Counted from the first letter of the whole stretch, positions 13,690-63,948 are shown. The stretch: 63,948 nucleotides of DNA, filler included, from Sanchytrium tribonematis (GCA_018985235.1; 5 parts of 5 records of this genome joined end to end with filler, not necessarily neighbours in it); one strand, 5' to 3'. The notes: generated by a model not told the origin, from the letters alone. Numbers and translations: made by a program.

Positions 13690-13832
13690 ATATTATTACA
13701 AACAAAAAACAATGTCTCAAAATAATTCAAATTATGCATATTGCTTTCATTGGCGGGCGAAATGACATCAGACTCTGTATATCCTTTGATTGGACAGAGA
13801 TTCTACTTCAATTCTCTACTTCTCTGCTTTAC

Positions 13833-14675: not shown

Positions 14676-14845
14676 ATATTATTACAAACTATGATCGTGG
14701 GAATACTCCAGATGATGCTGTAGATTAATGTAGATCGTTCTCAAAGTTCAGTATTGCTGTTATTGGCTGGTGAAATGACATCAGACTCTGTACATCCTTT
14801 GATTGGTTAAATATTCTACTTCAATTCGTTACTTCCCCACTTCAC

Positions 14846-28019: not shown

Positions 28020-29197
28020 AAGTCTTTGGCAGCTCAACTCCCCCCCGGGGGGAGTTGAGTTTACAGAATAAATTTTTCACTCAACTCCCCCCGGGGGAGT
28101 TGGGTCAAACATCAAATTTTAAAAAATGACAAATGGAAATCATCCACGTAAATTACAATCTTTAATGATCAAACATAAACGTAAAGCTTTATTACAATTA
28201 GTACAAGGTTCAATTAGTATTAAAAAGCTTGCAAAAGAGAACAAAGTAGATCCAAAAACAATTAGAGATTGGAGAAAAAATGCTGATAAAATATTTACTT
28301 ATCGAGGTAGAAATAGTCGTAAAATGGTATTAATTGGGCATAGTATGAAATTTGGATCCATTGAAGATATTATTATTGAACGAATCAAATTTTTAATGTT
28401 ATGCAAATCAAGTATTAGTTACGATAGAATATATAAATGGATTGAAAAACAAGATTTTGAAGCATTTAATGATGGAACATTTAAAGCGTCGAGAAATTGG
28501 TATGATGGGATGTTAAAAAGAAATAATCTCGTACCTAGAGCAGCAACACAATTAGTTAAAAAAGATGATCAATACTTGATTGAATCAGTAGCAAAGCATA
28601 TTCTGCAAGTTAAAAGCAAATTATCTATTAAAGTTCCAGCAGGAACAAAAGGTTATTGTCAACTTGCAGATGTCGGTTTGATTAAGAGTTTTGAAGCAGG
28701 AATTCGAAAATCAATTTTAGACTTCTATGATGAACAAGTTGATGAATTTCAAGCAAACCCGAACAAGCCAAAAGTCTTTCAAAAACCAGGAATTGTAAAA
28801 TTAAGAGACTGGATTGTCTGCGAATGGGCAAAAGTGACTCCTGAGATTACCGAAAGAACTTTAAAAACATGTTATTTGTCTGAAAATGTTGAGGAATTAC
28901 ATATGGCAAAATTGTTTTATATAACTTAGGTTCACAATTTATTGAATCATTTGAGCGCTTTTCAGTTTGGTCTAATGTTGTAAATGCATTATTAAATGGA
29001 ACAACATACTCAATGACTGCAGAAGAGTTTGAAATTGCACAATTTGACGAAGATGAGGAAATTTCTGATGCAAATGTTCCTCGATTTGAAGCACAAGAAA
29101 CCATTGATTTAACTGGAGAAAATGAATAAATATATGAATTAAGTAATTTTTATTGACATTTTAGAAATATGGGGGGGAGTTGAGCTGGTAAAGACTT
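28020..29197 (+). mobile_element. pogo/Tigger-type DNA transposon, internally deleted, with TIRs and TA target duplication
   Basis: Left end TA|AAGTCTTTGGCAGCTCAACTCCCCCCC; right end is the inverse GGGGGGGAGTTGAGCTGGTAAAGACTT|TA; ORF 28126-28929 has HTH, CENP-B-like FKASRNWYDGMLKRNNL and DDE_1 tail VPAGTKGYCQLADVG. Confidence 0.9.
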
Positions 29198-32529: not shown

Positions 32530-35500
32530 CTAGTGAGCTGTGTTGGGGGAATTATTACCATCAACAGGACTCTCCACCTGTTCTTGGTCAAATCCCTCGT
32601 TCAAATTCTTAACATCGCAAAGTAATTCCGGCAAAATCCATGCAAAACTCAAAAATGGACTCAATCCCTGTTCAACAGCAGCTAAACCTTCCTCATAAGC
32701 AACCTTGTACCAGGCGGAAATTTTTCTGTATGCCTCAAACTTCAATGCTCTATTGCCTTCAATTTCTTGTGGATCCTCCACTTGCAAACCATACCAAAAT
32801 CTCTCTTTGAAATCTTCTAAAAGATCAGAGAGCACATGATTTAGTCTTTCTTGCGCATCGTTCCCTTTCTCTCTATTTCGAGAAACAAGTCTTGAAAATC
32901 TTCTAACACAATGTGCTAAAACTTCACCTTCTGATTCTGCGCCAAATCGATTCGTAATTTCAAGCAATTCTTTGTTATACTCTAATAATTGATAAATAGC
33001 CTCTTCTTGATACTCATCATTATCAAGCATGAGAAGAGATTTATCAATCTTTAAATTGCAAGCATAATCCCTCAATCGAGTGTTTTTTACCAGCCTATAC
33101 ATTTTCCCCAAAACTTTTTCGCTTTTATAAGTTTGTTTTGGTTTTTTATTCATAAAATCAGGATATTTGCGAACCACCAAATCCGAGGGATACTTTGCAG
33201 GAATTCCAGTTTTACAAAAGTCTACTGAGATGGAATGAAGTTCTGCCAATTTTAAACATTCTAAAGATTTTGCTCCCAAATCATTAGAGTCTGCAAAAAC
33301 ACAATGAGCATTTGCGATTCTACCTAAATTGTCATTTTTTATGTAATTTACGAAAGAATTAATGATGTCACTGACATCTATTTTGTCTTGTTCTGGTGGC
33401 GATTCTGGTGCAGTATACTGCATAGGCGGAAAGTTAGTTTTAGGAATCAAATCAGGATCCATGATGATATTGTAAATATCGCCATCTAGGTCACCACCAG
33501 ACATTTCATTCGGATGTGGTCTTTCTCCCTTTTGAGGGAAAACCACCACATCAACCAAGTGGCTAAATTCTTTATGATTTTTAAATTTTAAAAGCCTAAT
33601 ATCGCCTGGATGTAGGCAAGGGCAACGGTAAACAGCAACTTCTGTACCATCGTTTAATATTTTGGGTTTTTTAGTCAAGCTTTCACTAAATTGAAAAAAG
33701 ACTTCCCCAGATTCGAGAAGTCCGTATTCATCCAGTATCCCAACAAGAGTGATTCCTTTAGGGACTTCTATGCGGGCACGTACTTGCAAGTCCAAAAGTC
33801 GTCTTTGTCGTACAGCTTCGATCAAATTTTGCAAGAACAGCTCTTTTCTCACATCAAATCCAGCATCCAACATTTTGTAAGCTACAGGGCAAAAATCGAG
33901 AGACAATCTTTTGGCAGCATCGTTATCCTGGAGACAAATATCTAATTCGTGAATTTGTGTTTTCAATTTTTTCACAAAAATATCATCTTTGATTCCTAAA
34001 CTGGAAAGCAAGACTATTGCTTGGCGATTGAGGTAGCATTTAAGTCCTCTCGATATGGCCAAAACTTCTACATTTCGATGGTCTTCACTTCCTTTGAATT
34101 TATGCATGCTCTCACGTAGAATCATTTTTATTCCCTTTAAACGTGAATCAACTGAGACCACCCCCTTTGCACCACCAAATCGAATTTGAAATGCAGATAT
34201 GGGGCCATTTTCACCTAATTTTTCGCAAATTTGAGTTGCAAGTTCTGAGCTTATTGTTCCACATCCATCAGAAAAGCAGTATCCCCGTGACTCGACGTCT
34301 CCCACAATTTTAAATTCATGAGGTTGGAGATCTACAGTTTGTCGGGAATTACTAAATCCTTGAGCAAGACGGGCAGCATGTTTACCAACAATTTTGATAC
34401 CACTCAAATCTCCCATGGAGGCCCTAATTTCACTTGCAGTTGGCGGATTTTGAGTACCATGCGGCTCTTCGTCATAAATCCAGCAACCCTGCTCTCGCAA
34501 TTGACTATTAGAATATGCCAGAAACACAAATTTATGACCTGCCACGGAAATACCATTGGACAACAAATCTTTCATCCTATCAAAAATTTCATCCGATCTG
34601 GCCTGTAATACTGATCCAAAATTTTCGTCAACAAATGTAACTCTTATAAAACGATCTTTATATTTTTGAAATTGACGAATTATTCGATTTGAAAGTTCTG
34701 CGTCGGGTGGTTGCGGACAAATTCTTGTAGGTGTGATGTACACCCTCTTGGTGTATTCCACGGAAAACTCAACAAATTCTTCATCCTTTTCGGACTTAAT
34801 GCGCTCCAATAACCACTTTACTCCGTTCCCCCAATTTTGTCTCTTAAAGGTAAAAATATCTGCTAATAATTCCGCAGAAACTTCTTGACAAGTAGTTGCA
34901 ATTGCTTCGGCATCTTTTTTGTTTGTTAAATATATCAAATTAGTCGACAAGAAACAATGAATCATGTACTTTTTATCAAATGTCATGTTTTTAAAACATT
35001 CCTCGTAGCCCTGTGCCCAACCGTCAGACAGCAATATCCAACTATAATCAGATGTTTTAATTTCTTTTTGAGACTTGAACGAAAAGTCATTTAATGTTTG
35101 CACAAATTTTTCATCAGCTCTCGACTCAACTTGCCAGCAAATTAGCCGATAACAGGGATATTTGCCAAACAGTTCAACTGGAGTTCTGGTCCATTCAGTT
35201 TCATATCCTGAAGCGTCCCATACGTAGTCGCTGTAAGCCCCAGCAATCTCCTTTTGTTGTGTAATGGAAGAAACCTTTTTTGATTGAATGTATAATTTTG
35301 AAAACTTCTCAACTAATTCGGCATATGAAGCACTCGATCCTGATTCTCTATAACAATCGGGTGGATACTTAACATCAAATGAAACGACTCTCATACTATT
35401 TTTGTCTCGGTGTATGGAGAAATTTATGAGATTCCGAAGTTCAAATTCCATTTTTAAACGAACATCATCAACTTTAAAATAGATAACGAATGACTTCGCT

Positions 35501-36108
35501 TTTTGAGCATCCCACTCCATTTCTAATTCCCAAAATTGTTGTGCAACTTCAAAGGTCGGTCTTTCGCTATTTATATCATTTAAAGGCAATCCAATCTGCA
35601 AAGAATTGATTTTGTGGGTATGGCACCCTAATGATTTTGCACTTTGTAAGGGTCTAGTTTTGTTTTCCTTTACAGCAAACTTTCTACCCAACAATTGCAA
35701 CAATCCTTCTGCCTGGCGATTTTGTAAATGCTCAAACACTGCTTTACTAGAAAGTAGTATTTGACCAGTTCCGTTAGACTTACCTTTATTTTGACCATAC
35801 CGTTGCCTTTTAATTTCGCATCTTAAAATTGGCATTGGACCGAAATTTCTAGATTCTAAATTCTTAGCTAAAGCTTTTGCTAAGTCTGCAGCACTGGCTC
35901 TAAAATGAAGATTATGAGCAAATATTGTGACTTGGGCCTCGTCTTGTAAGCGAGCATTGGTGATTGCTGTTGAATCTTGAATATCATTTTCAAGTTCTTC
36001 TTCTCGTGCTTTCTCTGCTTGAAAACTTCTCATGGATATTCGATAATATTCATGGTCTTCGCGAGTTTTCTTTTTGTACCTGTTCTTGTTTCGCTTCTTG
36101 CGTGCCAT
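32530..36108 (-). CDS. Cellular (RNAi) RNA-dependent RNA polymerase with N-terminal RRM-like region
   Basis: FIRVTFVDE, FLAYSNSQLRE, FSDGCG, AFQIRFGGAKG, CPCLHPGDIR, MSGGDLDGD, SVDFCKTG, YPDFM. Confidence 0.96.
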   Translation of the reverse strand: MARKKRNKNRYKKKTREDHEYYRISMRSFQAEKAREEELENDIQDSTAITNARLQDEAQVTIFAHNLHFRASAADLAKALAKNLESRNFGPMPILRCEIKRQRYGQNKGKSNGTGQILLSSKAVFEHLQNRQAEGLLQLLGRKFAVKENKTRPLQSAKSLGCHTHKINSLQIGLPLNDINSERPTFEVAQQFWELEMEWDAQKAKSFVIYFKVDDVRLKMEFELRNLINFSIHRDKNSMRVVSFDVKYPPDCYRESGSSASYAELVEKFSKLYIQSKKVSSITQQKEIAGAYSDYVWDASGYETEWTRTPVELFGKYPCYRLICWQVESRADEKFVQTLNDFSFKSQKEIKTSDYSWILLSDGWAQGYEECFKNMTFDKKYMIHCFLSTNLIYLTNKKDAEAIATTCQEVSAELLADIFTFKRQNWGNGVKWLLERIKSEKDEEFVEFSVEYTKRVYITPTRICPQPPDAELSNRIIRQFQKYKDRFIRVTFVDENFGSVLQARSDEIFDRMKDLLSNGISVAGHKFVFLAYSNSQLREQGCWIYDEEPHGTQNPPTASEIRASMGDLSGIKIVGKHAARLAQGFSNSRQTVDLQPHEFKIVGDVESRGYCFSDGCGTISSELATQICEKLGENGPISAFQIRFGGAKGVVSVDSRLKGIKMILRESMHKFKGSEDHRNVEVLAISRGLKCYLNRQAIVLLSSLGIKDDIFVKKLKTQIHELDICLQDNDAAKRLSLDFCPVAYKMLDAGFDVRKELFLQNLIEAVRQRRLLDLQVRARIEVPKGITLVGILDEYGLLESGEVFFQFSESLTKKPKILNDGTEVAVYRCPCLHPGDIRLLKFKNHKEFSHLVDVVVFPQKGERPHPNEMSGGDLDGDIYNIIMDPDLIPKTNFPPMQYTAPESPPEQDKIDVSDIINSFVNYIKNDNLGRIANAHCVFADSNDLGAKSLECLKLAELHSISVDFCKTGIPAKYPSDLVVRKYPDFMNKKPKQTYKSEKVLGKMYRLVKNTRLRDYACNLKIDKSLLMLDNDEYQEEAIYQLLEYNKELLEITNRFGAESEGEVLAHCVRRFSRLVSRNREKGNDAQERLNHVLSDLLEDFKERFWYGLQVEDPQEIEGNRALKFEAYRKISAWYKVAYEEGLAAVEQGLSPFLSFAWILPELLCDVKNLNEGFDQEQVESPVDGNNSPNTAH

Positions 36109-47304: not shown

Positions 47305-48519
47305 ATGAGGCTGTTAATCCCTTCGTTTCAAACAATGTCAGCAATACCCAGGCTTCCTGCACAGTTCGCCAGTGCAACCACCAGCTGTGGCATTCGCAGC
47401 CATCTTGATTTGGCATTGATTTGGTCTAATCAACCTTGTTCCTCGGCAGGTGTTTTTACAAAAAATGCTTTTAAGGCCGCGCCAGTTTTGATTTGTCAAG
47501 ATCTATTAAAAAAGCAAACAGCTCAGGGAGTTGTTATAAATGCTGGGAATGCGAATGCGGTTACTGGAAAGAAAGGATTTGAGAACGCAACCAAAATGAG
47601 CGCCCAATTTGTCAAGCCTGTTTTTGTAATGAGTACAGGAGTAATTGGTAAACAATTACCCATCGAGAAAGTGATCAATGGTATGAGCCAACTAAATAAT
47701 AACATATCAAGCGATGAGGACTCGGTTCAAAATTTAGCACAAGCAATTATGACAACCGACACAAGGCCTAAATATAAAACCTTGGAATTCAAAACAAAAA
47801 ATGGAAAAGTTTGCACTATAACTGGTATAGCTAAAGGTGCTGGCATGATTCATCCCAATATGGCCACAATGTTAGGCTGTATCTTAACCGATGCAAAAAT
47901 TTCACAATCTGAGTTACAACAGCTTTTATCTAAAGCTTGCTTTTCCACTTTTAATTCAATATCGGTGGATGGAGATACTAGCACAAATGACACCGTTTTA
48001 GCTCTCGCAAATCATCAAGTTGAATTGGATAAAAATGAAATGTTGAGTTTCGAAAACAATTTCCAGAAGATATGTTCTTATCTCAGTGACGAGATCGTCA
48101 GAGACGGTGAAGGAGCAACTAAGCTAATAGAGCTTACGGTTAAAGGTCTCAATTCGAATGAAGATGCTTTTCAAGTAGCAAGATTTGTGAGCAGATCTCC
48201 ACTCGTCAAGACTGCAATGTTTGGAAGAGATGCAAATTGGGGAAGGCTATTTTCTAGTGCCGGATCGTCTCATATTCTTCAAAATGAGACGTTCAATGAT
48301 ACATCCCGAATGAGTTGCAAATTTTCCAGCAAAAATGGAACCATCAAGGTGTTTGAAGAAGAGCCATTAAATTTTAATGAAGATTTGGCCAAGAATATAT
48401 TGGATGCTGAATTGATTCAAATTGAAATGGTGCTTGGCGATGGTCCAGGTAAAGCTACTTCTAAAACTTGTGATTTTACTCCAGATTATGTGCATGTGAA
48501 CGCTTCTTACCGAAGCTAG
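47305..48519 (+). CDS. ARG7: Ornithine acetyltransferase (ArgJ family)
   Basis: GNANAVTG, STGVIG, IMTTDT, AKGAGMIHPNMATML, DGDTSTNDT, DGEGATK, DANWGR. Confidence 0.97.
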   Translation: MRLLIPSFQTMSAIPRLPAQFASATTSCGIRSHLDLALIWSNQPCSSAGVFTKNAFKAAPVLICQDLLKKQTAQGVVINAGNANAVTGKKGFENATKMSAQFVKPVFVMSTGVIGKQLPIEKVINGMSQLNNNISSDEDSVQNLAQAIMTTDTRPKYKTLEFKTKNGKVCTITGIAKGAGMIHPNMATMLGCILTDAKISQSELQQLLSKACFSTFNSISVDGDTSTNDTVLALANHQVELDKNEMLSFENNFQKICSYLSDEIVRDGEGATKLIELTVKGLNSNEDAFQVARFVSRSPLVKTAMFGRDANWGRLFSSAGSSHILQNETFNDTSRMSCKFSSKNGTIKVFEEEPLNFNEDLAKNILDAELIQIEMVLGDGPGKATSKTCDFTPDYVHVNASYRS

Positions 48520-50454: not shown

Positions 50455-51288
50455 TTATTGATTCCAAACTGGAAAAAGATACAAAATTTTGGATGAATTG
50501 ATAGATTCTTCATCAGCCATTATCGCATTTTTAATAATTGGTACAGAATATTGTGTTTTTGCATTTGACTTCAAATATTCTATCAACACTTTTTGGGCAT
50601 TAGTGGCATTGTATTTTAAATTTTGGACTACATATTCGACAGTCACAGGAGCTTCATCCGTTTTCCAACAGTCATAATCAGTAGACATTGCTACGCAACC
50701 GTATGCGATTCCGGCTTCATTTGCTAATTTACATTCTGTAGCGCTTGTCATATTAATAATATCACAATTCCAAGACCTGTACATTTCTGATTCGGCTCTT
50801 GTACTAAATCCTGGGCCTTCCATCGTGACAACTGTTGCGCCAAAATGAACTGGAATATTTAAACTTAGAATCACTTTGTGTAAATCACTCTGTAGCTTTA
50901 TATGGAAAGGATCTGCCATACTGACATGTCCGACAATGTCATCAAAAAAAGTATCTTTTCTAAATTTAGATCTGTCAATAAATTGCAGCGGTAAAACAAA
51001 ATGTCTTGGCTCGATTGCATCTCTAAGACTACCTACAGCAGTGAAGGAAATAATTTTGTTTACACCAATACTTTTCAAAGCAGCGATGTTTGCTCTGTAA
51101 TTAATGTTGGTAGGCGTTATTGAGTGTCCTTGACTATGTCTTGGAAGAAAGTAGAATTCAATACCGTCGTGGCATAATTTCAATATAGGTCCGCTGGGAT
51201 TACCCCAAAGTGTTGATATTTCTCGGCTTTCTAAGGTTTCAATTCCATCTAAATTGTACAATCCAGTTCCTCCAATTATTGCCAACAT
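50455..51288 (-). CDS. MEU1: S-methyl-5'-thioadenosine phosphorylase
   Basis: AIIGGTG, FLPRH, INYRANIAALK, MEGPGFSTRAES, IINMT, STDYDCW. Confidence 0.95.
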   Translation of the reverse strand: MLAIIGGTGLYNLDGIETLESREISTLWGNPSGPILKLCHDGIEFYFLPRHSQGHSITPTNINYRANIAALKSIGVNKIISFTAVGSLRDAIEPRHFVLPLQFIDRSKFRKDTFFDDIVGHVSMADPFHIKLQSDLHKVILSLNIPVHFGATVVTMEGPGFSTRAESEMYRSWNCDIINMTSATECKLANEAGIAYGCVAMSTDYDCWKTDEAPVTVEYVVQNLKYNATNAQKVLIEYLKSNAKTQYSVPIIKNAIMADEESINSSKILYLFPVWNQ

Positions 51289-51763
51289 GATAAACCCTCG
51301 TTTCAACGAAAATCATGTCGACTGTTGGATAACGGATGAAGCTCCTGTGACTGNNNNNNNNNNNNNNNNNNNNNNNNNNNNNNNNNNNNNNNNNNNNTTA
51401 ATTAATTAANNNNNNNNNNNNNNNNNNNNNNNNNNNNNNNNNNNNNNNNNNNNATTTTAAAAAAATATGCAATATTTGATAAGGTAATTTCGGATTTATA
51501 TGACAGGTGCACACGAGATTTTCTTCAGGATTTTAAGAGTAGAAACTTTAGAATTTTTATTTGTATTGACAAGATTCCCCGGCGTGAAATACTAGACTTC
51601 GTAAACTTTGGAATAGTTAGTTACTCTGAGTTTGTTAGAGATACAAAAATTTATTTTGAGATCGAAGATCTGGATTCTATTGTGGATCTAGTTCAAAGCC
51701 GTATATTAGGCTATCATTTATTGGATAGATTTCCAGGTTTTTAGTAAAATTTTATTGAATCAT

Positions 51764-52534
51764 TTAGTTACGGGGATTTGCTATTGCATGTAATATTTCA
51801 TAGTAAACATGTCCTTCAGCGTCAGTATAATTTGTTTTGGCAAACGCATGTTTTAACTTCTTGTAGTGTCTGTGATGAAATGGGATATTACATTTCATTA
51901 TGTAGATTTTGAAACCAAATTGATAATATTTTTTGAGAAGCTCAGTCGTTGTAGTAGCAATCAGCCAATGAAAGTTAACCACAAAAATCGCAATTTTTTC
52001 AAGACTTATTGGTAAATGGGGAGAAGATAATTTAGTTCCATCATACCAGATTTGCGTACATGACAAGGCATAATTCTTCTTAATAAAAGTACTCGGACAA
52101 TGGCCTGATTGTATCAAGTTAATTTTTTGATCAACTCTACCTTTTTTTCTGGTCATAATTGTCAAGTCGCTAGAATACTCAAAAACAATGTAATTCTCAA
52201 AACTGACAAGAAATCCGATAATATTTTCAAAACTTTTGCCAATGTTTGGTATACTTATGTCCATTTCAGTAACACCCAGAAATTTGGTTTTCAGTATTAC
52301 CTGCAATAAAAAGGATCCCGAGATAACTGCACCGTTTTCGATCAGTAAATGCTTAAAATAATCTAAATTAGATATAAATTCTGCAATTCGCAAATTAATT
52401 TTTCCTAGTGGTTTTTCGTACTGTTTAATAATGTGATTTAACTTAGAGTTGCATTTTTTCAATGACAATACATCATCTTCATTTAAATATTCAAAAATTT
52501 TAAAGTGAACTTCTTCCGGCAAGTATCTGTTCAT
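51764..52534 (-). CDS. F-box protein fused to a GAVISGS (nucleotidyltransferase-like) domain
   Basis: YLPEEVHFKIFEYL; ENGAVISGSFLLQ...EMDISI; CTQIWYDG. Confidence 0.65.
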   Translation of the reverse strand: MNRYLPEEVHFKIFEYLNEDDVLSLKKCNSKLNHIIKQYEKPLGKINLRIAEFISNLDYFKHLLIENGAVISGSFLLQVILKTKFLGVTEMDISIPNIGKSFENIIGFLVSFENYIVFEYSSDLTIMTRKKGRVDQKINLIQSGHCPSTFIKKNYALSCTQIWYDGTKLSSPHLPISLEKIAIFVVNFHWLIATTTTELLKKYYQFGFKIYIMKCNIPFHHRHYKKLKHAFAKTNYTDAEGHVYYEILHAIANPRN

Positions 52535-52643
52535 TGATATTAAAGTGGTCGAGACAGATATTTATATTATCCAAATGCTTGCACAGTATATGATTGGATC
52601 CATCGTAATATTACAATTTCTAAAAGTTTATTATTATTAAATA

Positions 52644-55600
52644 TCAAATACCCAATAGGGCGACCCCAAATTCTAATAAGTCATCCGTGAACTTCAAATG
52701 GGATTCATTATATCCTTCGGGAAATTCTTCATCACGTAGAAATTTTATATCAGAAGAAGATTTCACTCTACTAATAACAACATAAAGCTGTTGCGACAAC
52801 CAAAAGTGTCTCAAATTACCAACGACGATAGAATTTAATGTCATTCCTTGTACTCTATGTATTGTTAGCGCATAAGCTAAACTAATTGGAAATTGATATA
52901 GTTTGTAACCATCGTTGATTTCAAAGGCAGGTTTAATAGGGATACAAAGACAACCGCTTTTACATAAAAATTCAACATAAATTGTAGAACCATTGATTCC
53001 AATATCAACAGATTTGACCATACCAATAGAGCCGTTTACAAGACCGTCTTTAAGACTTAAATTTTTAAGGAGAGTAACTCTGGCTCCTACACATATTTCT
53101 AATATTGGTAAAAATCTGAATTTTGATTTAATAGCTGAGTGTTTTGGCAAATCAAAGTAACTATTCTTATTGTTTTTAAAATTAAAGCAAATAGAATGAA
53201 CTTTGGAAGCCAGACTTTTAAGCATGGCCATGTTGTGATTATTACAGGCTCTATTGGTTGGATAAATATAAGGAACAGCTTCACTATATGTATTTAGAGT
53301 AATTCTGGAGTTTATAAATTCAAGTATTGATCTAATTCTTGTTTTCTTATTCAGGTCAATGTTGTAAAAATTGTCAACGAGATATGTTAGTTCAGAATCT
53401 TTTTCTGCTCGATAATTATGGGTCAGAATGTGTTTCTTGAATATTTTAAAATAATCCGAAGAATATAATACATCTCCGTTTACAGGCGGTAGCTGTTTAG
53501 GATCTCCGAATAGTAGGACTTTGCAATTTTGAAACATTTGGTGCTGCATTATCTGCATGATGTACTCAAATAATTGGAGGTCAATCATTGAGAACTCATC
53601 AATTATTAACAAATCCATTTCTAAAGGAACAGGATTTGATTTTTCGTTAAAAAGTAAAGTCTCCCATGTTTCTTTTGTTTCATGATATCGTAACTTGAGT
53701 TTTGAATGTACAGTCGTACCATCGATCAAATATCCAGCTATCCCAGTACTTGCTGTTACTTCTGCTTTAAGATTTAAGGCTCTAGACCCTTCCATGATTG
53801 ATTTTATCAAAAAAGATTTTCCTGTTCCTGGTCCACCACTAATTATATGATATTTGGAATTCTCAAATAAACAATCTTTGTAGATTTTATATTGTTGTTC
53901 TCCTAAGGAAGAGGGAGAATTTTTTTTCTTAGAACGTTTCAATGAAAACATATTCTCAATCTCCAAAATTTGTTTATCTTTGTATCCTTCCTCTTTCAAG
54001 ATTTCTATTTCAAGCTCTTCACTTAATTCATCTGGGAATATAGCATTTTGCTCAATGTTGCCAAGAAATTTTTCATATATATAAGATCGATGTTCTGTGA
54101 TTGAATCCAAAAGTTTCTTTGGATTTCTAAATGGAACATTTTCGAGAATTTTTTGTTTGTAATAAAAATCAGCCATATACTCTGTATAGTAGGGATACAA
54201 TCGAATGATCGCATTGTTCTTTCTTTTCTTCCAATAGTTTTCGGATTTATCTTGAAAATCCCACTTTTCTTTTGCGTTGACTTTTTCATATTTTCTGTAA
54301 TAATCTGTTATTGTTAGATTTTCTAGATTTTCTGGTCTTTGACAGTAATTGTCCATCTGATTTAAATATACAAAGTTTCTATCTTCAGGATTCTCTTTCT
54401 TTAGACGTTCGCATTCTTTAGGTCTTTTTATATATCTCTTGTCTATTAAACTTTCACAGAGAGGAATCTTAACAACTTTAGTTGAAAATTTTGTAATCAC
54501 ATTTCCAGATAAATAATGACTAATCTCATGGACAGAGTAATCACGAGTACTTATATATTTTGTAATTTCATTTTCTTTAACTTCCAGTAGTCCTTGAGGT
54601 TCTGGTTTTGTGCAGTATTTTGTTATATAATTACAAATAAATTCATTACAAACCAATTTGATATCCATATTACCTTGCCACTTAAGTAGCCAATCTGCAT
54701 GGTAATCATTGATATTTACATCTTTAGTTTGCCTTTTAATGCTATATCTTGCAACGCTCGGATCAAAAAACGTTTTTCTAATTATTTCTTTTGGAAAATT
54801 AAAGCGACATTTCCGAGAAGTACCTAGACAATAATTGGAACAACTGTGGTATTGATGATACCGTACTAACAAATGTAGTTCCGGTTGTTCTTTAAAAGAA
54901 GGAATATCACCCTGTATTCCATTCAGTATATCATCGGGGCCCTCTACATTATCTAGCCATAATAACATATGCATATGAACAGTTCCGCGTTTTTGAAATT
55001 CAAATCTTTGAAAGTATTGGGAAATGGACTTCTCCATGTAGCCAAATTTAAGAATGTATTTAAACATGCTTTGTAACCTTTCATAGCAGTAATGATTTGA
55101 TAATACTGGATTAGCGGTAAAAATATTTTCATTTCCATTTGGTTTCTTTCCAAACTTTAGCAAATATTCTTCCAAATCTGGCCAAGTTTGCTCAGAGCAG
55201 GAAAAAGTGACAAACAAATGCGGAACCCCGAAAGTCTTAACCATAGCAAAAAGACCCATTCTAGCCTGTTTGAAAAATGAACTGGATCCTCTTATTGAAA
55301 CTGGAACAGCAGCAGTATTATCATCATTAAATACATTTCCAAATCCGTATTTAGAATCTTGCAAAACATCAGTAACAGTCAAATTGGAATTATTGTTTCT
55401 CAACTGTCTTGCATAATTTTCGGTAATACGATATTTTTCTAAATAGTCGAAATGAAAAAAAATAAAATCATCACACTCACGAAATCGTCCGTCTTTATCA
55501 AATCATTGGGATTTAACTCTTTTTGCCCTTCCTGTAAAATTATTTTCAAGTGTATTTCTACCTATGGGGTATAGATATGGGAACAAATGAGCTTCAATTT

Positions 55601-56626
55601 TTGAAAAGCAAAAATTAAATACTTCCTTGACTCCATTTTGAATAATTTCTCCTGCAGGTAAAACTTTTATATTGGAATCGTCTTTTCCAAGTTCCGATAT
55701 ATTGTAATCAATTGGTACCGAGAAAATTTGGCCTGATTTTCCTCCAAATAATTTTTAATCAGATTCATTTTGCAAAAAAAAGTCTAAAGTTTCTGTTGGA
55801 AAAATATAATTTGCATATAAAGGATTATTATGTACCAGCCACTGCAATGAGTTTCGAACTCTGGAGTTATCAAGAAATAATTTAGAATTGTAGCTGTTTT
55901 CAATTCCAACTAATCCTGCACAAGTTTGCCAAACTTTCCAGTTGACAGACAAATGAGCAGTTCCATAATATCTAGCATACAAATATTGTTTGGAAATTTG
56001 TGCTTGGCATAGAGTTTTAAAATTCTCAACGATTGTTTTTCACTATTATCTAAGAGTTTTATACATTCCGGAATGCTATCCCAATTTTTATCAGTACATT
56101 TGACTTTACACCTTTGATTTTTATCAAGGTTTTGCCGTTTTTTCAAAGAATTGCAGTTAAGGCAAACAAATTCTCGTATTTCGGGTTTAATGGCAAAGGA
56201 TAAGAAATTTAATTTAACATAGAAGTCTAAAAATAGCTTTAAATTAAGCAAATGTGGTTGTGTGTACTCTGGATAATCTAACTTTTTGGTAATTAACCGA
56301 TTACTTATGGTTTGTCTAAGACCTTGCAATTTTTGACTATTTAGCTTATTGTTTTTTTGAATGTTACTTAGGCTTTTAAGACCTAAGTTTTTGGAAACAG
56401 TTGATCTCAATTTTTTTGTATTGATTTTTGGTTTTGTTTTATACTTAAAACTATTTGTCGTCAACTTTAACTTTCTTAATTTTGATTGTCGACTCTTGCA
56501 TCTATTAGTTTTTAATGAGTCATCAGATATTTGCTTTTGCACGTTTTTCAAAACATCTTCAAAAATTTCTTTTTCTCTTGCTTTTTCAGATCTTAACTTC
56601 ATCTTTTTACAAATGTTATTTTTCAA
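52644..56626 (-). mobile_element. Helitron Rep/Helicase gene; 5' part disrupted by a frameshift near 55980 and in-frame stops near 55755 and 55505
   Basis: HUH Rep motifs PHLFVTFSC, EFQKRGTVHMHMLLW, YITKYCTKPE; Pif1 motifs GGPGTGKS, IIDEFSMI, FGDPKQLPPV, QFPISLAYALTIHRVQGMTL, YVVISRV; upstream EAHLFPYLYPIG..DGRFR. Confidence 0.95.
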
Positions 56627-56646
56627 TTGTTATAAATGTTCCCTGA

Positions 56647-56821
56647 CCAATCACTTTAAATCTATTTGAACACAAATTGTTACAATGCTACCTTGAAAAG
56701 CAGTCTATTGGTTAGTAACATCATTAATAATAACAATTTGAAGCGTTTTTATTGGCTATCCCGTTGATGTTGATTGGATAATGATATTACTTTAATTGGC
56801 TAGAACATTGAATTTGATTGG
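56647..56821. promoter_or_regulatory. Array of CCAAT boxes upstream of the Helitron ORF
   Basis: CCAAT at 56647; ATTGG at 56707, 56751, 56773, 56795 and 56817. Confidence 0.55.
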
Positions 56822-56944
56822 CTGGCTAACGGAGCGAAATTATGTAACTGTTTATAACGAAATCTATCAGTTCTAAAAAAATTAAAAATTATTTTTAAAT
56901 GCTCTATAGTAATATTGAAAACAGTTCAAATTTATATTATTTCA

Positions 56945-57372
56945 ATCCCACCAGGTCGAATAAATTGAATGGAAAATAAGACATCATCCAATATTAAAAA
57001 TTCACTCAGTTCTAATTTAATTACCTTAAATTATTTATTCAGCTTCTTTAGATGACAAACAAAATGCTAATTAATTATTTCGATCCCACCAGGTCGTATA
57101 AATTGAATTGAAAATAATACATCATGCAATATTAAAAATTTACTCAGTTCTAAATTTAATTACCTTAAATTATTTATTCAGCTTCTTTTGATGACAAACA
57201 AAATGCTAATTAATTATTTCGATCCCACCAGGTCGTATAAATTGAATTGAAAATAATACATCATGCAATATTAAAAATTCACTCAGTTCTAAATTTAATT
57301 ACCTTAAATTATTTATTGAGCTTCTTTAGATGACAAACAAAATGCTAATTAATTATTTTGATCCCACCAGGT
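56945..57372 (+). repeat. Tandem repeat of a 138-139-bp unit, three full copies plus a 12-bp fourth start
   Basis: ATCCCACCAGGT starts at 56945, 57083, 57222 and 57361; units nearly identical. Confidence 0.93.
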
Positions 57373-57427
57373 ATCATTACTTGTTTTATATTCATACTAG
57401 TTAAGGGCTCTCCTTGAAACATCAGTC

Positions 57428-59209
57428 ATGAAAGAAATATTAAAATTGGATGACTTTTGTAAATATACTTTAATTGATGATAGATTAATACACAAATCCC
57501 ACAAAATTTATCTAAACAAAAAAGAATTGGAGCTAGTACTGTTTAAAAACATAAAGTCCCATAAACAACTGATTTTAGATTTAATAGCTATTTTTCAAGA
57601 AAAAAAGTGTGATTTGAATCCAGCGACAATACAAAGCACTTTATTACCTTTGAGCAACAACATTTACTATCAATTATGCTCTGAAAATGCTTTGAAAAGA
57701 ATCTTAGACAATGACTCATTAACAAATAATGATATGAGAATGCTGTTCCTCACGTACAACATGACCTTTTGTAATAATGTCAACATAATGTTTGGTAACG
57801 TTGCAAGATATTCAGACCCCAAATACAAATCTAATTTCCAAAGTGGGGTTTTTGCTGTTAATGATACTCTAAATGATTATGCTGATGATTACGCGCAATA
57901 TAAAGAAAACAGTCCTGTATTTACAAAACACCAGACAATTGGTCTTTACGGACTATTTGTGCCTATTTCTCATCAACAAAATGTTGAATTGAGCGATGAA
58001 AATAAGGATTTTTCCGTGATGCATCGCGAATTTAATGGAGTAAACACTCCAGGCCTATTGATAGGACCAATTCAGTTTGTAAATCATCAATGTGTGCGAC
58101 CAAATGTTGACATTGTATTTAATTCAGACACCAAACTTACTTATTTGAAAGCAGTTAGAGATATTAAAAATGGAGAAGAATTACTTACATATTACGGTGA
58201 TAATTATTTTGGGGAAACTAATCAGTACTGTCAATGCAAGGTTTGTGAAAAGAAAGAACTAGAATTAGAACCAATTTTCAAATCATCTGAAATCTTAAGA
58301 TTGTATAGAAACTATAGCAGTTATTTCCACCCTAATAAGGATGAATTAAGTGCTTATAAATCTACTTGGAAAGATATGAGTGATCAGATGTATATTGGAT
58401 TTCATGAAATGACCTCCTATGCAGAAATTGCCGAATTTCTTCATCACACGAACCAATTGTTGCTTCCAAACTATCAATGCTACGAGAAAATAGTTACTGA
58501 TAAGCATCAAACTGAAAATAATGAAAGTAGACTCTATATGGAAGATTTGAAAAACAAAATTCATGCCCTTCAACCTGAACTGAAGTTATTTGACAATAAC
58601 AATGAATTATTACCAATACAACAAAATTTATTAATGAGCAAGGAAGTAAAACATTACTATAAATATTTGACCTACTATTGTGCAAGAATCGGCTACACTG
58701 CTCCATATTCACAAGTTTTAAAAGAATTACGTGTTGATAAAACAACAATATTTTGGTTTGAATGTCCTGTTCGTGGTAAGATTGACAAAGAAGGTTATGA
58801 ATTGAAAGGTGCATCTTTACCATATCATGCTAATATTGTCATGTTTGACTGGAAAAAAGAAACAAATACAATTGCAATTACAATTTATGAAGCGGATCCA
58901 AATTACGGTTCTACCAAACAACTGTCATTTCGAAGTCTTACACCATGGGCATTAAACAAAACCATTTCAGATATTATCTCCAAAAAGCATAAAAACAAAT
59001 CATATACAATCGATTTAGTTTGTAATTTCCAAAAAGATAGTGATAAACGTAGAAACTGCTGTAAAAATTTTATTATTAATGAGTCATACAGTTCAAAATA
59101 TAGAATCGCTAGTCGCAATATCGAACCAAAACCTAAAAAAGTCTCTAGAATTAGAGATGACCATATTAGCGAAGCATTAAACTATAAAAAATTTAAAACT
59201 GAGAAATAA
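57428..59209 (+). CDS. SET-domain protein (Set9/SUV4-20-like) with an uncharacterised C-terminal domain
   Basis: LLIGPIQFVNHQCVRPNV, AVRDIKNGEELLTYYGDNYFGETNQYCQCKVCE. Confidence 0.85.
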   Translation: MKEILKLDDFCKYTLIDDRLIHKSHKIYLNKKELELVLFKNIKSHKQLILDLIAIFQEKKCDLNPATIQSTLLPLSNNIYYQLCSENALKRILDNDSLTNNDMRMLFLTYNMTFCNNVNIMFGNVARYSDPKYKSNFQSGVFAVNDTLNDYADDYAQYKENSPVFTKHQTIGLYGLFVPISHQQNVELSDENKDFSVMHREFNGVNTPGLLIGPIQFVNHQCVRPNVDIVFNSDTKLTYLKAVRDIKNGEELLTYYGDNYFGETNQYCQCKVCEKKELELEPIFKSSEILRLYRNYSSYFHPNKDELSAYKSTWKDMSDQMYIGFHEMTSYAEIAEFLHHTNQLLLPNYQCYEKIVTDKHQTENNESRLYMEDLKNKIHALQPELKLFDNNNELLPIQQNLLMSKEVKHYYKYLTYYCARIGYTAPYSQVLKELRVDKTTIFWFECPVRGKIDKEGYELKGASLPYHANIVMFDWKKETNTIAITIYEADPNYGSTKQLSFRSLTPWALNKTISDIISKKHKNKSYTIDLVCNFQKDSDKRRNCCKNFIINESYSSKYRIASRNIEPKPKKVSRIRDDHISEALNYKKFKTEK

Positions 59210-59569
59210 ATAATTTATAAAGTCGGTGCAAATTTCTTCCTACTTTTTTTTGTGTCCAGAACATTCCAAGGAATTTGCAGGGGATTTGTGTTCAAATTTT
59301 CAATGATCAAAAAATATTTCAAATAAATTTTCATGTGAATCTAGGGCGCCCAAGCATTTAATACGTAATATTTTTTATTTAGATCTTCGACTTCGCAAAT
59401 TCTTTGTCACTCTTGACCAATGCCACCAACTTGCTCTGTATCCATTTATTGTTTTCCTGCAAAACACATTTTCGGACGAGTCTTTATTTGAATTTCGAGA
59501 TTTCGACTCTCAAAATTTTTATTATGGAGTATCTAAACGAGATGCCACGCTTGCTGGCCGACTATTTTG

Positions 59570-60030
59570 AAATATCTACTGGTCACAATATTGCGGATGC
59601 ATCAGTTTTTTGGACTAGGATCGATAACCACTGTTCAAGGCACATTGAATCAGTTTATATACTGCAAAATAATGCAAGAGCATTTGCTACCAAAGTGCAA
59701 TTCTGTCAAGACTCTTTTTATACCTGTTTTTCAACAAGAAAACGCACCTTGTCATAATGCTCGTTACATCTGTAACTGGCTTAAACGAAATGATATTGTA
59801 TTAATTGACTAGCCAGCTTGTACCGTAGTCCTAAACTGAACTCAATAGAAGATTTATGGGCGATTACGAAAGAAGACTTGAAAAGTTAGATTTTTTCAAT
59901 GAAGACTCTTTGAGGAATAGTGCAGTAGAATTATGGGAATCCATCCAGAAAAACAACTCAGCTATGCTCTAAAATCTTGCGCTAACATTCAAAACTAAAT
60001 TGAGGAACTGTTTACATGGTGACTTGATCA
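59570..60030 (+). mobile_element. Tc1/mariner (DDE_3) transposase relic
   Basis: GLGSITTVQGTLNQFIY, VFQQENAPCH, WLKRNDIVLID*PA, SPKLNSIEDLW. Confidence 0.85.
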
Positions 60031-60339
60031 ATAAATTTTATTTGTGATTTTTGGCAATAACTCCTGTAGCAAAGTATATTACCAGCTCTACAAATCAAAT
60101 TCCAAGTAGCCAGTAATAATATTACCATGGAAATATTGCGATGCGCTTGTAGTTGATTTGCTATATGGCAGGCTAAAATTTTAATGTCAAAATAAGGACA
60201 AAATAGAACGGCTCATTAATGGATTGGAATGTTCGCCAATCCGTTCATAATGGCCATTAATGGGTAAATTTAGGGAATTTTTAGATTGACGCATCTCTTT
60301 CTCAATAAAAAAGACATCCCATTTATCCATGTTATAGAG

Positions 60340-60890
60340 TATAAACCAGCTCAAATCCACCCCACCATATAATTTTGAAATGTCAATAAATTGATCGATA
60401 ATTACTTAATTCATATATTCATTCATTTTCATTTTCACTACTTAAATCAATGTTTTCTTCTTGTGCTTCCAATCAAGGAACCTTTGCATCAGAATATTCC
60501 TTATCTTTGTGCAACTTCTAACTTTTCTGCAGTCATTGAGTATGTTGTTCCATATAATAATGCATTTACAACATTAGACCAAACTAAAAAGCACTTAAAT
60601 AATGCAATATATTGTGAACCTAAGTAATATAAAACTATCTAAGACAGTTGCTTTTGACATGTTTAATTCCTCAATGTTTCAGTCAAATAACAAGTTTCTT
60701 AATTTTTTTCGATAATTTCAGGAGTCATATTTGCCCATTCCCAGACAATCCAGTCTCTTATTTCTACAGTTCCTTGTCTTTGGGAGATTTCTGGCATGTT
60801 TGGGTCATTCAAATTTGTTTTATTTGTTTGCACTTGCTTTTAAAGCTTGTTGAACAAACTTTAATTCAGAACTGCTTGGTTCGCTAACAA
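60340..60890 (-). mobile_element. Diverged 3' fragment of the same pogo family as 28020-29197
   Basis: 60510-60625 is a diverged reverse complement of 28925-29040; degenerate TIR CCAGCTCAAATCCACCCC near 60346. Confidence 0.8.
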
Positions 60891-61106
60891 TTCAACTGAT
60901 GGGCTTAAACGAAAGTTTAAATTTTAGACTATGTATAAGTTCTCGTTTAAAATTTTATTTGAATTCATCGACTCAGAGCTCCCGTAAATATTATTTAAAT
61001 CTATTGATCACTATTTGATAGAAGCAATAAATAAGCTAGATTTTAATGAAGCTACAATAGATAATTGCAATAATCTAAATAAATTGTATATAATTATTTT
61101 AATTAT

Positions 61107-61711
61107 TTACTTGTAATATTCCTTCTGTTTCTCACTCATGTTTATAACAGATGACACAGTCTTAGCATTCCAAAACTTCTCATTAATATTTAAGAACATG
61201 CACGCTTCAAAATGTACTGGGAACATTGATTGGCGCAAACTTGTCAGTACAAGCTTTGCTTTGCTAAATAAGCGCTCCACCAAGTAGATGTAGCAAAAAT
61301 AAAGCTTAAGTCAATATAATTAGTAGTCTTAAATCTTTTTATCTTTTGTTCAATTAAACCATCAGCAAACTTTAACTCTTCAACTTCAACTACTTCTACA
61401 ACATCATCACGTAATAAAAACGGCTTTAAAACTAGTTTTTCCTCATAGCTAAGCTTATGCTCTTCGTTATCCAGTACTTTCACAACAGCATTTTCAAATA
61501 TGGGACTTTGAACAATCTCGCTTGAAGGAGACAAATGAGATATCATCGATGGATACAAAGCAATAATGCCATCAAACAATGCACTTACATCACTAAGTGT
61601 CAACATTTTCTCTTGTAGCTTCTTTGTTACACTTTCAAATTTTTTCAAATGATCAAGTAATTCTAATAAGAGAGTACGTTGTTGTATAGTCGATGATCGA
61701 CTATGACTCAA
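61107..61711 (-). mobile_element. hAT-like transposase C-terminal relic
   Basis: FESVTKKLQ, LSDVSALFD, IVQSPIFENAVVK, YIDLSFIFATS, then in a shifted frame VERLFSKAK...HFEACMFLNINEKFW. Confidence 0.75.
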
Positions 61712-61786
61712 ATCTTACACCTAATGCTCCATATGCGAGTTGTGTTGATATTTGTAAGATTTGATTTTCCTAATAATTTTTAAAAC

Positions 61787-63948
61787 ATGAATTTTGTTGG
61801 CGATGAAAAGATTATGGCGTACGAATATCAGCCACTAGTAGATCCTTTCAATCCTAAAATTCGCAATAATACCCGTACCAAAATGCTAGCAGCTTTGATT
61901 GCACTGGTTTTATCGTGTTCTTTTATGGCCTATATGGTTTGGCCAACTCTCAAAACCAACTACGTAGCTCAACATGGTTTATTATATAATGAATTTAGAC
62001 TGCCTACTGATGTTCATCCTACCCATTACAATATTGGTTTGGATATTACAATGCCAACTAAGAGTGATAATTCTTCAGTTGTCAAAGGATTTGTGATAAT
62101 GGATATTGAAGTGACTAGTGCTACTGATAAAATTGTATTTCATACAGTAGATCAAGAATTAGAAAATGTTGCCTTGGTCCAAAAAGAGAAAAACTATAAA
62201 ATTGCAAAATCCAATTATAACAAGGAAATGGAATATCAAGTCTTGATATTTGATAAGAAATTAGAAAAGGGATCCTATTCTTTAAGCATGGGATTCAAAT
62301 ATGATACCCGATATGATTTAAGAGGCTTTTATTTGAGTAGTTACAAAACTTCAGAATTCAGTGAGGATTATTGGATTGGAGTTACTCAGTTTGAGGCAAC
62401 AGATGCAAGAAGGGCATTTCCTAATTTTGATGAACCAGATAAAAAGGCCACATATGATATTACTTTACATGTTCCAAAAGAATACCACGCTCTCTCAAAT
62501 ATGCCTATTTCCAGAAAAGTAGATCATGGAGAATCTACTATTTATGAATTCCAAACAACTCCAAAAATGTCATCTTATTTATTGGCATTTGCTGTGAGTC
62601 AATTTGAACCAACAGAAGTGGTTAAAACTGTCAATAATGTCGAAGTAAGATGTTGGACAAGACAAGGAATGACCGATCAAGGTGTGTATGCCGCAGCTGC
62701 AGCAGTCAAGGTTTTGGAAAAGTATACCGAATTATTTGATATCGAGTATCCATTGCCAAAATTGGATATGATTGCCATTCCTTCATTTAGTGCTGGAGCT
62801 ATGGAAAATTGGGGATTCGTGACTTATAGAGACACTGCTATCTTAATTGACCCTAAAATCAGTTCAGAGGGTAATTACCAGCGTGTAGCCACTGTGGTTG
62901 CTCATGAACTGGCTCATCAATGGTAAATTGAATTTATTTAGGTTTGGAAATTTAGTCACCATGCAGTTTTGGGACTCGTTATTTTTAAATGAGGGATTTG
63001 CGACTTTGATGGAGTACAAGGGTACTGCCGCAGTAGCAGATAATTGGAGAATCGATGACCAATTTTACATCATGGATACTTTGAGAGCATTTGATGTAGA
63101 TTCTACTTTAAATACCCATGCGATTCATGTAGATGTTCATTCACCTCATGAAATTGGTAAGATATTTGACGGCATTTCCTATTCAAAAGCAGGAAGTTGT
63201 TTAAAAATGTTGGAATTTTATGTAAATCAGCAAGCGGATGTTTCCACTGGAAATACTGCATTCTTTAAAGGACTACATGATTATTTGTCCAAACATCAAT
63301 ATGGAAATGCAGAAAGAAGAGATTTATGGAAAGCATTAGATGCACCAGGTTTATTTGTTCCAGAAATGATGGAAAGTTGGACAGATCAACCAGGCTATCC
63401 AATCGTGGATATTATTCCATTTGAAGAAGATGGTAAAACATTTGTCAATTTAATTCAGACTAGATTTTTAAGTACTGTCAAAGTGAAGACTGAGGCGCAA
63501 AAAGATCAAAAATGGATGATCCCGTTTAGTTATCAAGTTTATTCAAAGGAAGATGGGAAAATTTCTAAAGGACCTGTCCAATTTATTTTATTAAAAGAAA
63601 AAGAGACTAAAGTGCATATTCCAGATGCCAAAGGAAATTGGATAATTAAAGGCAATGTGGATCAAACTGGATTTTATAGAGTGGGGTTGCCATTTGAGTG
63701 GTACGAAGTTGCCAAAGACTGGTTTGAAGAAGATTTAAATGTCATGAGTACAATGGACAGAGCAGGTTTCTTAGAAGATGCTTTAGCTATTGTTTTAACG
63801 GGACAAACAGACCACCCAGAGAGATTATTCGCATTAACTAAATTTTTAAAGAATGAAAGAGATTATATTGTTTGGTCTACTGCTTTGAATCGATTTGCTG
63901 AGATTGAAGGTGCTTTACGAATTTCACCATTTTATAGCGAATTGAAAT
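61787..63948 (+). CDS. M1 aminopeptidase with N-terminal TM anchor; exon 1 61787-62922, exon 2 from 62942 to the window end
   Basis: TQFEATDARRAFPNFDEP, GAMENWG, HELAHQW|FGNLVTM, LNEGFAT, FDGISYSK. Confidence 0.95.
62923..62941 (+). other. 19-nt intron in aminopeptidase: GTAAATTGAATTTATTTAG
   Basis: Removal joins TG|G and restores HELAHQWFGNLVT. Confidence 0.93.

What the first reader, a model, noticed from the sequence alone, without database searches (positions are those of the whole stretch)
51764..59209. Helitron flanked by an F-box fusion and a histone-methyltransferase gene: candidate cargo-carrying element
Seen: RepHel is followed co-directionally, about 110 bp on, by an F-box plus GAVISGS-domain gene. 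A SET gene diverges from it across a CCAAT array and a 139-bp tandem repeat. No housekeeping gene interrupts the block, and TE relics follow it. Known: Helitrons capture genes and often contain internal tandem repeats. Inference: a rolling-circle element of more than 7.5 kb carrying chromatin (H4K20-type SET) and ubiquitin-pathway modulators, possibly for anti-silencing. I could not identify the element termini.
Basis: partly seen in the sequence, partly recalled or inferred. Interest (0 to 1): 0.72.

Follow-up and report, generated by a model that had tools for sequence, protein, structure and literature searches.

The report
Fungal Helitron carrying H4K20-type methyltransferase
A broken copy of a repeated rolling-circle transposon, probably from an early-diverging fungus, lies between and likely carries an H4K20-type histone-methyltransferase gene and two giant-virus-like F-box genes, which would let it tamper with host chromatin and protein turnover.

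Summary
The block sits at the cut end of a 12.5-kb contig, so the element's left end is outside the window. The RepHel is Helitron2-like, has no endonuclease, and is broken upstream by a frameshift and two stops. The 'GAVISGS' domain is a class II nucleotidyltransferase fold (Z 12); its F-box fusion is closest to giant-virus proteins. A second, convergent paralogue is cut by the contig end. Both F-box genes recur together on another contig (88% and 94% identical, Sanchytrium records), and a distant F-box relative probably shares a contig with a RepHel relative. The SET domain is clearly SUV4-20/Set9 class and occurs in variant copies in the one run that holds this DNA. Its link to RepHel in other copies and the termini were not shown. 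Its C-terminal half may be a Ulp1-like protease (lead only). SET and C48 cargo in Helitrons are published, and this scan already noted F-box-nucleotidyltransferase Helitrons in mushrooms. My searches found no H4K20-class SET in a Helitron. 'Anti-silencing' is unsupported, because fungal H4K20me3 silences. Verdict: new variant of a known kind.

The parts
51354..51453 (.). Contig join (N-linker); left limit of what can be read. The element very probably continues beyond it.
51454..51744 (+). 3' end of a second, convergent F-box/nucleotidyltransferase-fold paralogue, cut by the contig end; its full-length relative P0026 lacks the catalytic acid pair
   Evidence: 78 of 83 residues identical to P0026; tblastn 51454-51705; alignment A3
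51764..52534 (-). F-box (aa 5-38) fused to a class II nucleotidyltransferase fold (Gad2-like, giant-virus-like), 256 aa, open frame
52644..55502 (-). RepHel, open 3' part (HUH Rep plus PIF1 helicase, no endonuclease)
55503..55985 (-). RepHel 5' part between two in-frame stops and the frameshift; weak DUF6570 match
55910..56602 (-). RepHel N-terminal ORF (Lys-rich, then a Cys-cluster shared with relatives), out of frame with the rest
   Evidence: tblastn of P0006, P0007, P0009 in frame -3 at 56197-55985
56707..56821 (-). Phased CCAAT array (22-bp period), likely core of a divergent promoter
56936..57372 (+). 139-bp tandem repeat, 3.2 copies
57428..59209 (+). 593-aa gene: SUV4-20/Set9-class SET and post-SET domain (about aa 127-276), then a C-terminal domain
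58415..59137 (+). C-terminal domain of the SET protein; possible Ulp1/C48-like cysteine protease of giant-virus type (H467, E488 or D490, Q535, C544 or C545); lead only
   Evidence: scores 0.84-0.87, under the tool's 0.9 line; no hit; positions
59210..59402 (.). Interval in which the element's right (5') end probably lies; holds an imperfect 14-bp GC-rich palindrome at 59341-59354 (candidate only)
   Evidence: a 500-bp contig at depth 60 begins at 59372; 5 such palindromes in the window

Best explanation
This is a decayed copy of a repeated Helitron2-like rolling-circle transposon, at least 7.8 kb long, that likely carries three accessory genes as part of the element: two F-box/nucleotidyltransferase-fold paralogues downstream of RepHel and a SUV4-20/Set9-type histone methyltransferase, possibly fused to a cysteine protease, upstream. 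Shown: the anatomy, the protein classes, the breaks in RepHel and the repeated nature of the DNA. From established Helitron biology: an intact RepHel nicks one end, unwinds and copies the element through a circular intermediate, and inserts it elsewhere, taking everything between the ends; this copy would need a RepHel from another copy. Inferred: the phased CCAAT array drives RepHel and SET together in opposite directions. The SET enzyme would then write H4K20 methylation at the time of transposition, most likely to steer break repair and chromatin reassembly at cut and insertion sites rather than to lift silencing. The F-box proteins would dock on Skp1 and use the nucleotidyltransferase fold, catalytically weakened or dead here, mainly as a binding module to send host restriction factors for degradation, as proposed for giant-virus adaptor-nucleotidyltransferase fusions.
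For: RepHel family with 4 close relatives at 41-52% among 9 hits, self included. Both F-box paralogues recur on one other 10,530-bp contig: P0023 at 88% and P0026 at 94%. F-box relative P0025 (32%) and RepHel relative P0006 (52%) are both recorded on a 9,982-bp ENA contig, probably the same one. Run X1: of 330 contigs laid on 51454-63948, 203 are under 99% alike. SET shows variant rows from up to 4 contigs, a 214-bp deletion joint, a replaced stretch and an inversion joint to the tandem repeat. One divergent contig spans about 57301-57494, joining the last repeat unit to the SET start (span inferred from the from_end column). SET class: SUV420H1 E 1.7e-17 against 0.0087 for the next class; RYS, DFSVM, NHxC, YYG and post-SET cysteines present. 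Fold: pLDDT 84, Z 12.0, rmsd 3.4, 165 aligned to PDB 3aql, the top of six class II enzymes at Z 9.9-12.0; best viral match E 9e-12, Klosneuvirus. The 5 element ORFs have GC 0.29-0.32 and 9 hand-picked host genes 0.335-0.39 (weak, since GC3 does not separate them). Precedent: SET in proto-Helentron-Pi, C48 and FBA_3 in Helitrons.
Against: No contig was seen that joins SET to RepHel in a second copy; only 8 of 352 pieces were displayed, the longest in the element 880 bp. No other SET-plus-C-terminal-domain protein was found: 3 hits among 7993 candidates, namely the protein itself and two Claviceps proteins matching the SET domain only, so SET is not shown with the more distant RepHel relatives. 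Termini were not found. X1 is a single run and may be the window's own source; its depth is not a copy number, and joints at 80% likeness can come from other repeats (tool notes). The shared 9,982-bp contig is inferred from equal length only. DUF6570 is below its cut-off. All roles of the accessory genes are untested, and there is no expression evidence either way.
Confidence: 0.65

Rival explanations
1. The Helitron carries only the F-box genes. The SET gene belongs to a separate repeated element, or to an integrated virus-like fragment, that happens to lie head to head with it in a transposon-rich region.
For: No SET relative found with distant RepHel relatives. The C-terminal domain's nearest ESM clusters are mostly viral. 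At least two other repeat relics follow within 2.5 kb. Other DNA transposons carry SET genes (HarbingerS, seen only as a reference title).
Against: There is no transposase or viral core gene between or next to SET. The 825-bp intergenic region looks like one promoter region. A second copy keeps the tandem repeat joined to the SET start, and variant contigs cover the block from the contig end to 59376.
Confidence: 0.2
2. The SET gene is the host's own fast-evolving Set9/Kmt5, beside which a Helitron inserted; the extra copies are fragments picked up by read-through.
For: Best protein hits are two Claviceps SET proteins at 38% over the SET domain. The frame is intact while RepHel is broken. Only one full-length protein is in the collection.
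Against: Several divergent, deleted and inverted copies exist. The C-terminal half does not match the Claviceps proteins beyond the SET region (17% coverage). Composition matches the element genes.
Confidence: 0.1
3. The structure is as in the best explanation, but the package is an anti-silencing kit: SET acts as a decoy or re-targets methylation, and the F-box and nucleotidyltransferase act against RNA interference.
For: The host encodes an RNA-dependent RNA polymerase (PF05183, E 1e-175). Fungal Helitrons carry TET/JBP enzymes proposed to lift silencing (PMC12730594, passages).
Against: Kmt5/H4K20me3 is needed for silencing in Zymoseptoria, and this SET keeps its catalytic motifs, so a decoy role is not indicated. 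Nothing here links the F-box proteins to RNAi.
Confidence: 0.2

Closest known systems
proto-Helentron-Pi / HelenPi572 of Phytophthora infestans (PMC4067079 section 11; PMC11417382 passages)
   Same: HLE2-type RepHel without endonuclease, several extra ORFs, one of them a SET-domain gene
   Different: Its SET is about 153 aa and was compared with Clr4 (H3K9). Here it is SUV4-20/Set9 class in a 593-aa fusion. No F-box genes are described there. Ends (5' TT, 3' CTAG) could not be compared.
Helitron2/HLE2 of fungi, e.g. FoHeli (PMC5148889, passages) and HLE cargo domains of HELIANO (PMC11417382 section 22)
   Same: Rep plus PIF1, DUF6570-like segment upstream of Rep; protein-degradation cargo (OTU, UCH, FBA_3, Peptidase_C48) is known in HLEs
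   Different: The RepHel forms a small separate family (41-52% to four relatives, 21-26% to the rest). F-box-nucleotidyltransferase and SUV4-20 are not among the domains named in the section read.
Giant-virus F-box/BTB-nucleotidyltransferase fusions (Pandoravirus cluster 7, bioRxiv 10.1101/2023.12.02.569716, passages) and phage Gad2 (PF26128; bioRxiv 10.1101/2023.05.01.538930, passages)
   Same: Class II nucleotidyltransferase head fold joined to a cullin-ligase adaptor; motif B (RRD) absent
   Different: Carried by a transposon, as two paralogues. Motif A reads E-x-D with a 15-residue spacer in one and is lost in the other's relative.
SUV420H1/H2 and fungal Set9/Kmt5
   Same: SET and post-SET motifs, including the Ser-Val-Met pocket residues
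   Different: 38% identity to the best protein hits over about 100 residues, an insertion inside the N-terminal SET half, and a different C-terminal domain

Membership tests
Helitron-like elements | HUH Rep domain followed by PIF1 helicase in one ORF | tested here: met
   motifs conserved in A1
Helitron-like elements | Dispersed copies | tested here: met
   variant and deleted copies in run X1; F-box pair on a second contig
Helitron-like elements | Defined ends, no target duplication, empty site | tested here: inconclusive
   left end outside the contig; right end only bracketed; sequence scans found no convincing terminal structure
HLE2 / Helitron2 | DUF6570 upstream of Rep (marker according to PMC11417382) | tested here: inconclusive
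   E 0.00067, 20.5 bits against cut-off 24.3, C-terminal part of the profile only; weak in 2 of 4 relatives
HLE2 / Helitron2 | Asymmetric terminal inverted repeats, hairpin, T|T insertion | tested here: inconclusive
HLE2 / Helitron2 | RepHel groups with HLE2 in a tree | not tested
   no classified reference set was fetched
Helentron | AP endonuclease after the helicase | tested here: not met
   ORF ends after the helicase; no endonuclease family in the window protein or in relatives P0006 and P0007
proto-Helentron | SET-domain ORF of Clr4-like type | tested here: not met
   SET present but SUV4-20 class: E 1.7e-17 against 0.16 for EHMT2
SUV4-20/Set9 (KMT5) | SET domain closest to SUV420, with SAM, lysine-pocket and post-SET zinc motifs | tested here: met
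   pocket residues named in PMC8985178 (passage)
SUV4-20/Set9 (KMT5) | Methylates H4K20 | not testable with these tools
   needs an assay
Class II nucleotidyltransferase | Pol-beta-type head fold | tested here: met
   Z 12.0, rmsd 3.4, 165 aligned; Foldseek E 1.6e-4
Class II nucleotidyltransferase | Motif A hG(G/S)x9-13Dh(D/E) | tested here: inconclusive
   G73-S74, then E90-x-D92 after 15 residues; D-x-D intact in P0025, P0027, P0028, P0031, P0032, absent in P0024 and P0026; motif
Class II nucleotidyltransferase | Motif B RRD | tested here: not met
   no RRD in the 256-aa sequence
F-box protein | N-terminal F-box | tested here: met
   Pfam above cut-off; 7 of 11 family members match at E up to 0.1; Z 5.6-5.8 to the Cdc4 and FBH1 F-boxes
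CE-clan (Ulp1/C48-like) protease | His-Asp/Glu-Gln-Cys in order in a papain-like fold | tested here: inconclusive
   ESM lead 0.84-0.87; residues in the expected order (order recalled); no Pfam, NCBIfam or PDB hit; fold failed, pLDDT 31.5

The most novel reading that the evidence does not exclude
Early-diverging fungi host a distinct Helitron2 lineage that moves with a giant-virus-style host-control kit: an H4K20 methyltransferase fused to a SUMO/ubiquitin-type protease, co-expressed with the transposase, plus two F-box-nucleotidyltransferases. The element would set its own DNA-repair mark at the breaks it makes.
Probability: 0.25. Interest if true: 0.75.

Novelty: new variant of a known kind. 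Interest (0 to 1): 0.5.

Why it matters
Transposon-borne chromatin enzymes described so far mostly concern DNA demethylation or H3K9-like SET domains. An H4K20 writer would point to a different target, the repair and compaction mark, and give a testable link between rolling-circle transposition and host break repair. The F-box-nucleotidyltransferase genes tie Helitron cargo to a gene pool shared with giant viruses and may help explain the spread of this unstudied family in fungi.

Tried and rejected
No whole genome is held for this window, so the host Set9 and other copies could not be read directly. Metagenome scan with the RepHel alignment: 1 of 326 candidate stretches, a 1,058-bp contig without neighbours. 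Viral-contig scans: 0 of 104, 0 of 9 and 0 of 4 candidates. No RNA holder listed. Single-sequence fold of the SET protein failed, pLDDT 31.5, and was not searched. The SET C-terminal domain had no Pfam, NCBIfam or credible PDB hit. PHROGs gave nothing useful. Tiny introns as the cause of the RepHel breaks: rejected, because relatives align straight through with one residue at each stop and 2 contigs of X1 carry one extra base at the frameshift. A 10-11-bp inverted match between 51661 and 59381 as terminal repeats: rejected as near chance, and it lies in the coding frame of the second F-box gene. The 59341 palindrome is one of 5 in the window and has no second copy there. The relics at 59380-59950 (Tc1-like) and 61244-61714 (hAT-like) had no Pfam hit; those labels are recalled from motifs. 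Sequence look-ups in earlier findings were blank.

Full report
Setting. The window is five contigs joined by N-linkers; the last runs from 51454 to 63948. The block begins 310 bp from that join, so the MTAP and tRNA genes to its left are not neighbours. No genome is held. The host is probably a sanchytrid fungus or a close relative: proteins 88% and 94% identical to two genes of the block are recorded as Sanchytrium tribonematis.

Observation. All described features are present. The F-box gene 51764-52534(-) starts 109 bp after the RepHel stop. The SET gene 57428-59209(+) diverges from the RepHel start across 825 bp. Four CCAAT boxes sit at exact 22-bp spacing, reached by 4 of 5000 resamplings. 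The 139-bp repeat has 3.2 copies. After SET come repeat relics; 60345-60805 is 78.5% identical to DNA on another contig of the window.

RepHel. The open frame 52644-55502 has Helitron_like_N and PIF1. A search with its first 500 residues gave 9 hits among 6753 candidates: itself, four relatives at 41-52% (one from S. tribonematis, three unnamed ENA records) and four at 21-26%. The relatives align further upstream, through two in-frame stops and a frameshift near 55985, into the ORF that starts at 56602. The gene was about 1,320 codons and is broken in this copy. Two contigs of run X1 carry an extra base at the frameshift. A DUF6570 match lies upstream of Rep but below its cut-off. HELIANO reports DUF6570 as an HLE2 marker (PMC11417382, passages and section 22). 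There is no endonuclease. I class it as Helitron2-like without a tree.

F-box genes. The word-index search found only the protein itself (1 of 244 candidates). The full HMMER search found 10 proteins. With their alignment the model reached pLDDT 84. It matched class II nucleotidyltransferases (Z 12.0, rmsd 3.4, 165 aligned) and, best of all, giant-virus proteins, several of them annotated as F-box proteins. The ESM Atlas put it next to Gad2-like clusters dominated by viruses (0.97; PF26128 on 34% of members). Gad2 is a predicted nucleotidyltransferase (bioRxiv 2023.05.01.538930, passages). Motif A reads E-x-D and motif B is absent, so activity is uncertain. The fragment at the contig end, 51454-51744(+), is 78 of 83 residues identical to P0026, a second paralogue that lacks the acid pair. 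P0026 and P0023 (88% to the first F-box gene, truncated) lie on one 10,530-bp contig, a different locus. P0025 and the RepHel relative P0006 are both recorded on an ENA contig of 9,982 bp; this is probably one contig and would be independent linkage, but it rests on equal length.

SET gene. Among 38 PDB sequences matched, the ten best are SUV420H1/H2 (E 1.7e-17 to 5e-14); the next class is at 0.0087. Cofactor, pocket and zinc motifs are kept (pocket residues from a passage of PMC8985178). Only 3 of 7993 candidates matched: itself and two Claviceps proteins over the SET domain alone. The C-terminal domain resembles unannotated mostly viral clusters and one cluster with Peptidase_C48 on 15% of members, at 0.84-0.87, which the tool calls a lead only. 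His, acid, Gln and Cys occur in the order I recall for CE-clan proteases, but no profile or structure confirms it.

Copies. One run, X1, holds the stretch and may be its source. Of 330 contigs laid, 127 are 99% alike or more, 58 are 95-99%, 77 are 90-95% and 68 under 90%. The output showed 40 of 873 variant rows, 12 of 78 indels, 15 of 20 joints, 6 of 103 loose ends and 8 of 352 pieces. Summed depth is 94-358 over the 19 bins of the block (113-252 over the 5 SET bins) and 55-126 over the 7 bins from 61045; the tool warns that this is not a copy number. Within SET there are variants from up to 4 contigs, a 214-bp deletion, a replaced stretch and an inversion joint to the tandem repeat. One divergent contig joins the last repeat unit to the SET start. 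A joint from the F-box gene to RepHel has only 23 letters on its short side and is weak. No displayed piece joins SET to RepHel. A 500-bp contig at depth 60 begins at 59372, which brackets the right end at about 59210-59400. The ends remain unmapped.

Mechanism. Shown: anatomy, protein classes, decay, repetition. From known biology: rolling-circle transposition through a circular intermediate (PMC5148889, passages). Inferred: the accessory genes travel inside the element, and SET is co-expressed with RepHel. In Zymoseptoria, loss of Kmt5 derepresses transcription and raises sensitivity to genotoxic stress (PMC10553808, abstract). I therefore favour a role at breaks and insertion sites over anti-silencing. 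The F-box proteins most likely act as SCF adaptors. I put F-box cargo at about 0.9, SET cargo at about 0.7 and any specific function at under 0.4.

Comparison with print. A SET gene in a Helitron is published for proto-Helentron-Pi, compared there with Clr4 (PMC4067079, sections 10 and 11 and passages). C48 and FBA_3 cargo are published. TET/JBP cargo is published (PMC12730594, passages). Pleurotus Helitron cargo is described without the word F-box (PMC4289320, passages). No paper in the library holds Helitron, F-box and nucleotidyltransferase together (0 hits). Searches for transposon-borne SUV4-20/Set9 listed no such report (listings only). The sanchytrid genome paper has no occurrence of 'transpos' or 'repeat' in its main text (PMC8371127, term search). 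PMC8788227 was seen as passages only and added nothing decisive. I did not see HELIANO's Table S11, the supplements of Thomas et al. or Repbase, which may hold such elements. Earlier notes of this scan report F-box-nucleotidyltransferase Helitrons in mushrooms and Helitrons with SET, DOT1-like and TET genes; these are unchecked.

Verdict. A real, decayed, cargo-bearing Helitron2-like element. The theme is known; the H4K20-class SET, its possible protease fusion, the paired giant-virus-like F-box genes and the host lineage make it a new variant. Interest 0.5.

Noticed in passing
window 62923-62941: The M1 aminopeptidase gene appears to be split by a 19-nt GT-AG intron that restores the reading HQW-FGN; unusually short.
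   Followed up: partly
window 32530-36108 (-): RNA-dependent RNA polymerase (PF05183, E 1e-175), so the host probably keeps RNA interference.
   Followed up: partly
window 13021-15697 (+): Three tandem paralogues; the middle one is a Peptidase_M43 (pappalysin-like) metalloprotease.
   Followed up: partly
window 2178-4581, 8806-9318, 10643-12229: The first contig is rich in mobile-element relics: endonuclease and reverse transcriptase of a LINE-like element, a DDE_Tnp_4 transposase and a second endonuclease ORF.
   Followed up: partly
window 28126-29189 and 60345-60805: Two copies (78.5%) of a DNA-transposon-like family on different contigs; high summed depth in X1.
   Followed up: partly
window 47305-48519 and 50455-51288: Intronless ArgJ-like gene (label recalled from motifs) and MTAP-like phosphorylase, with tRNA-Ser and tRNA-Leu close by; origin not examined.
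   Followed up: no
P0024, P0026: Two Sanchytrium paralogues of the F-box-nucleotidyltransferase family have lost the catalytic acid pair, which suggests repeated conversion to binding modules.
   Followed up: partly
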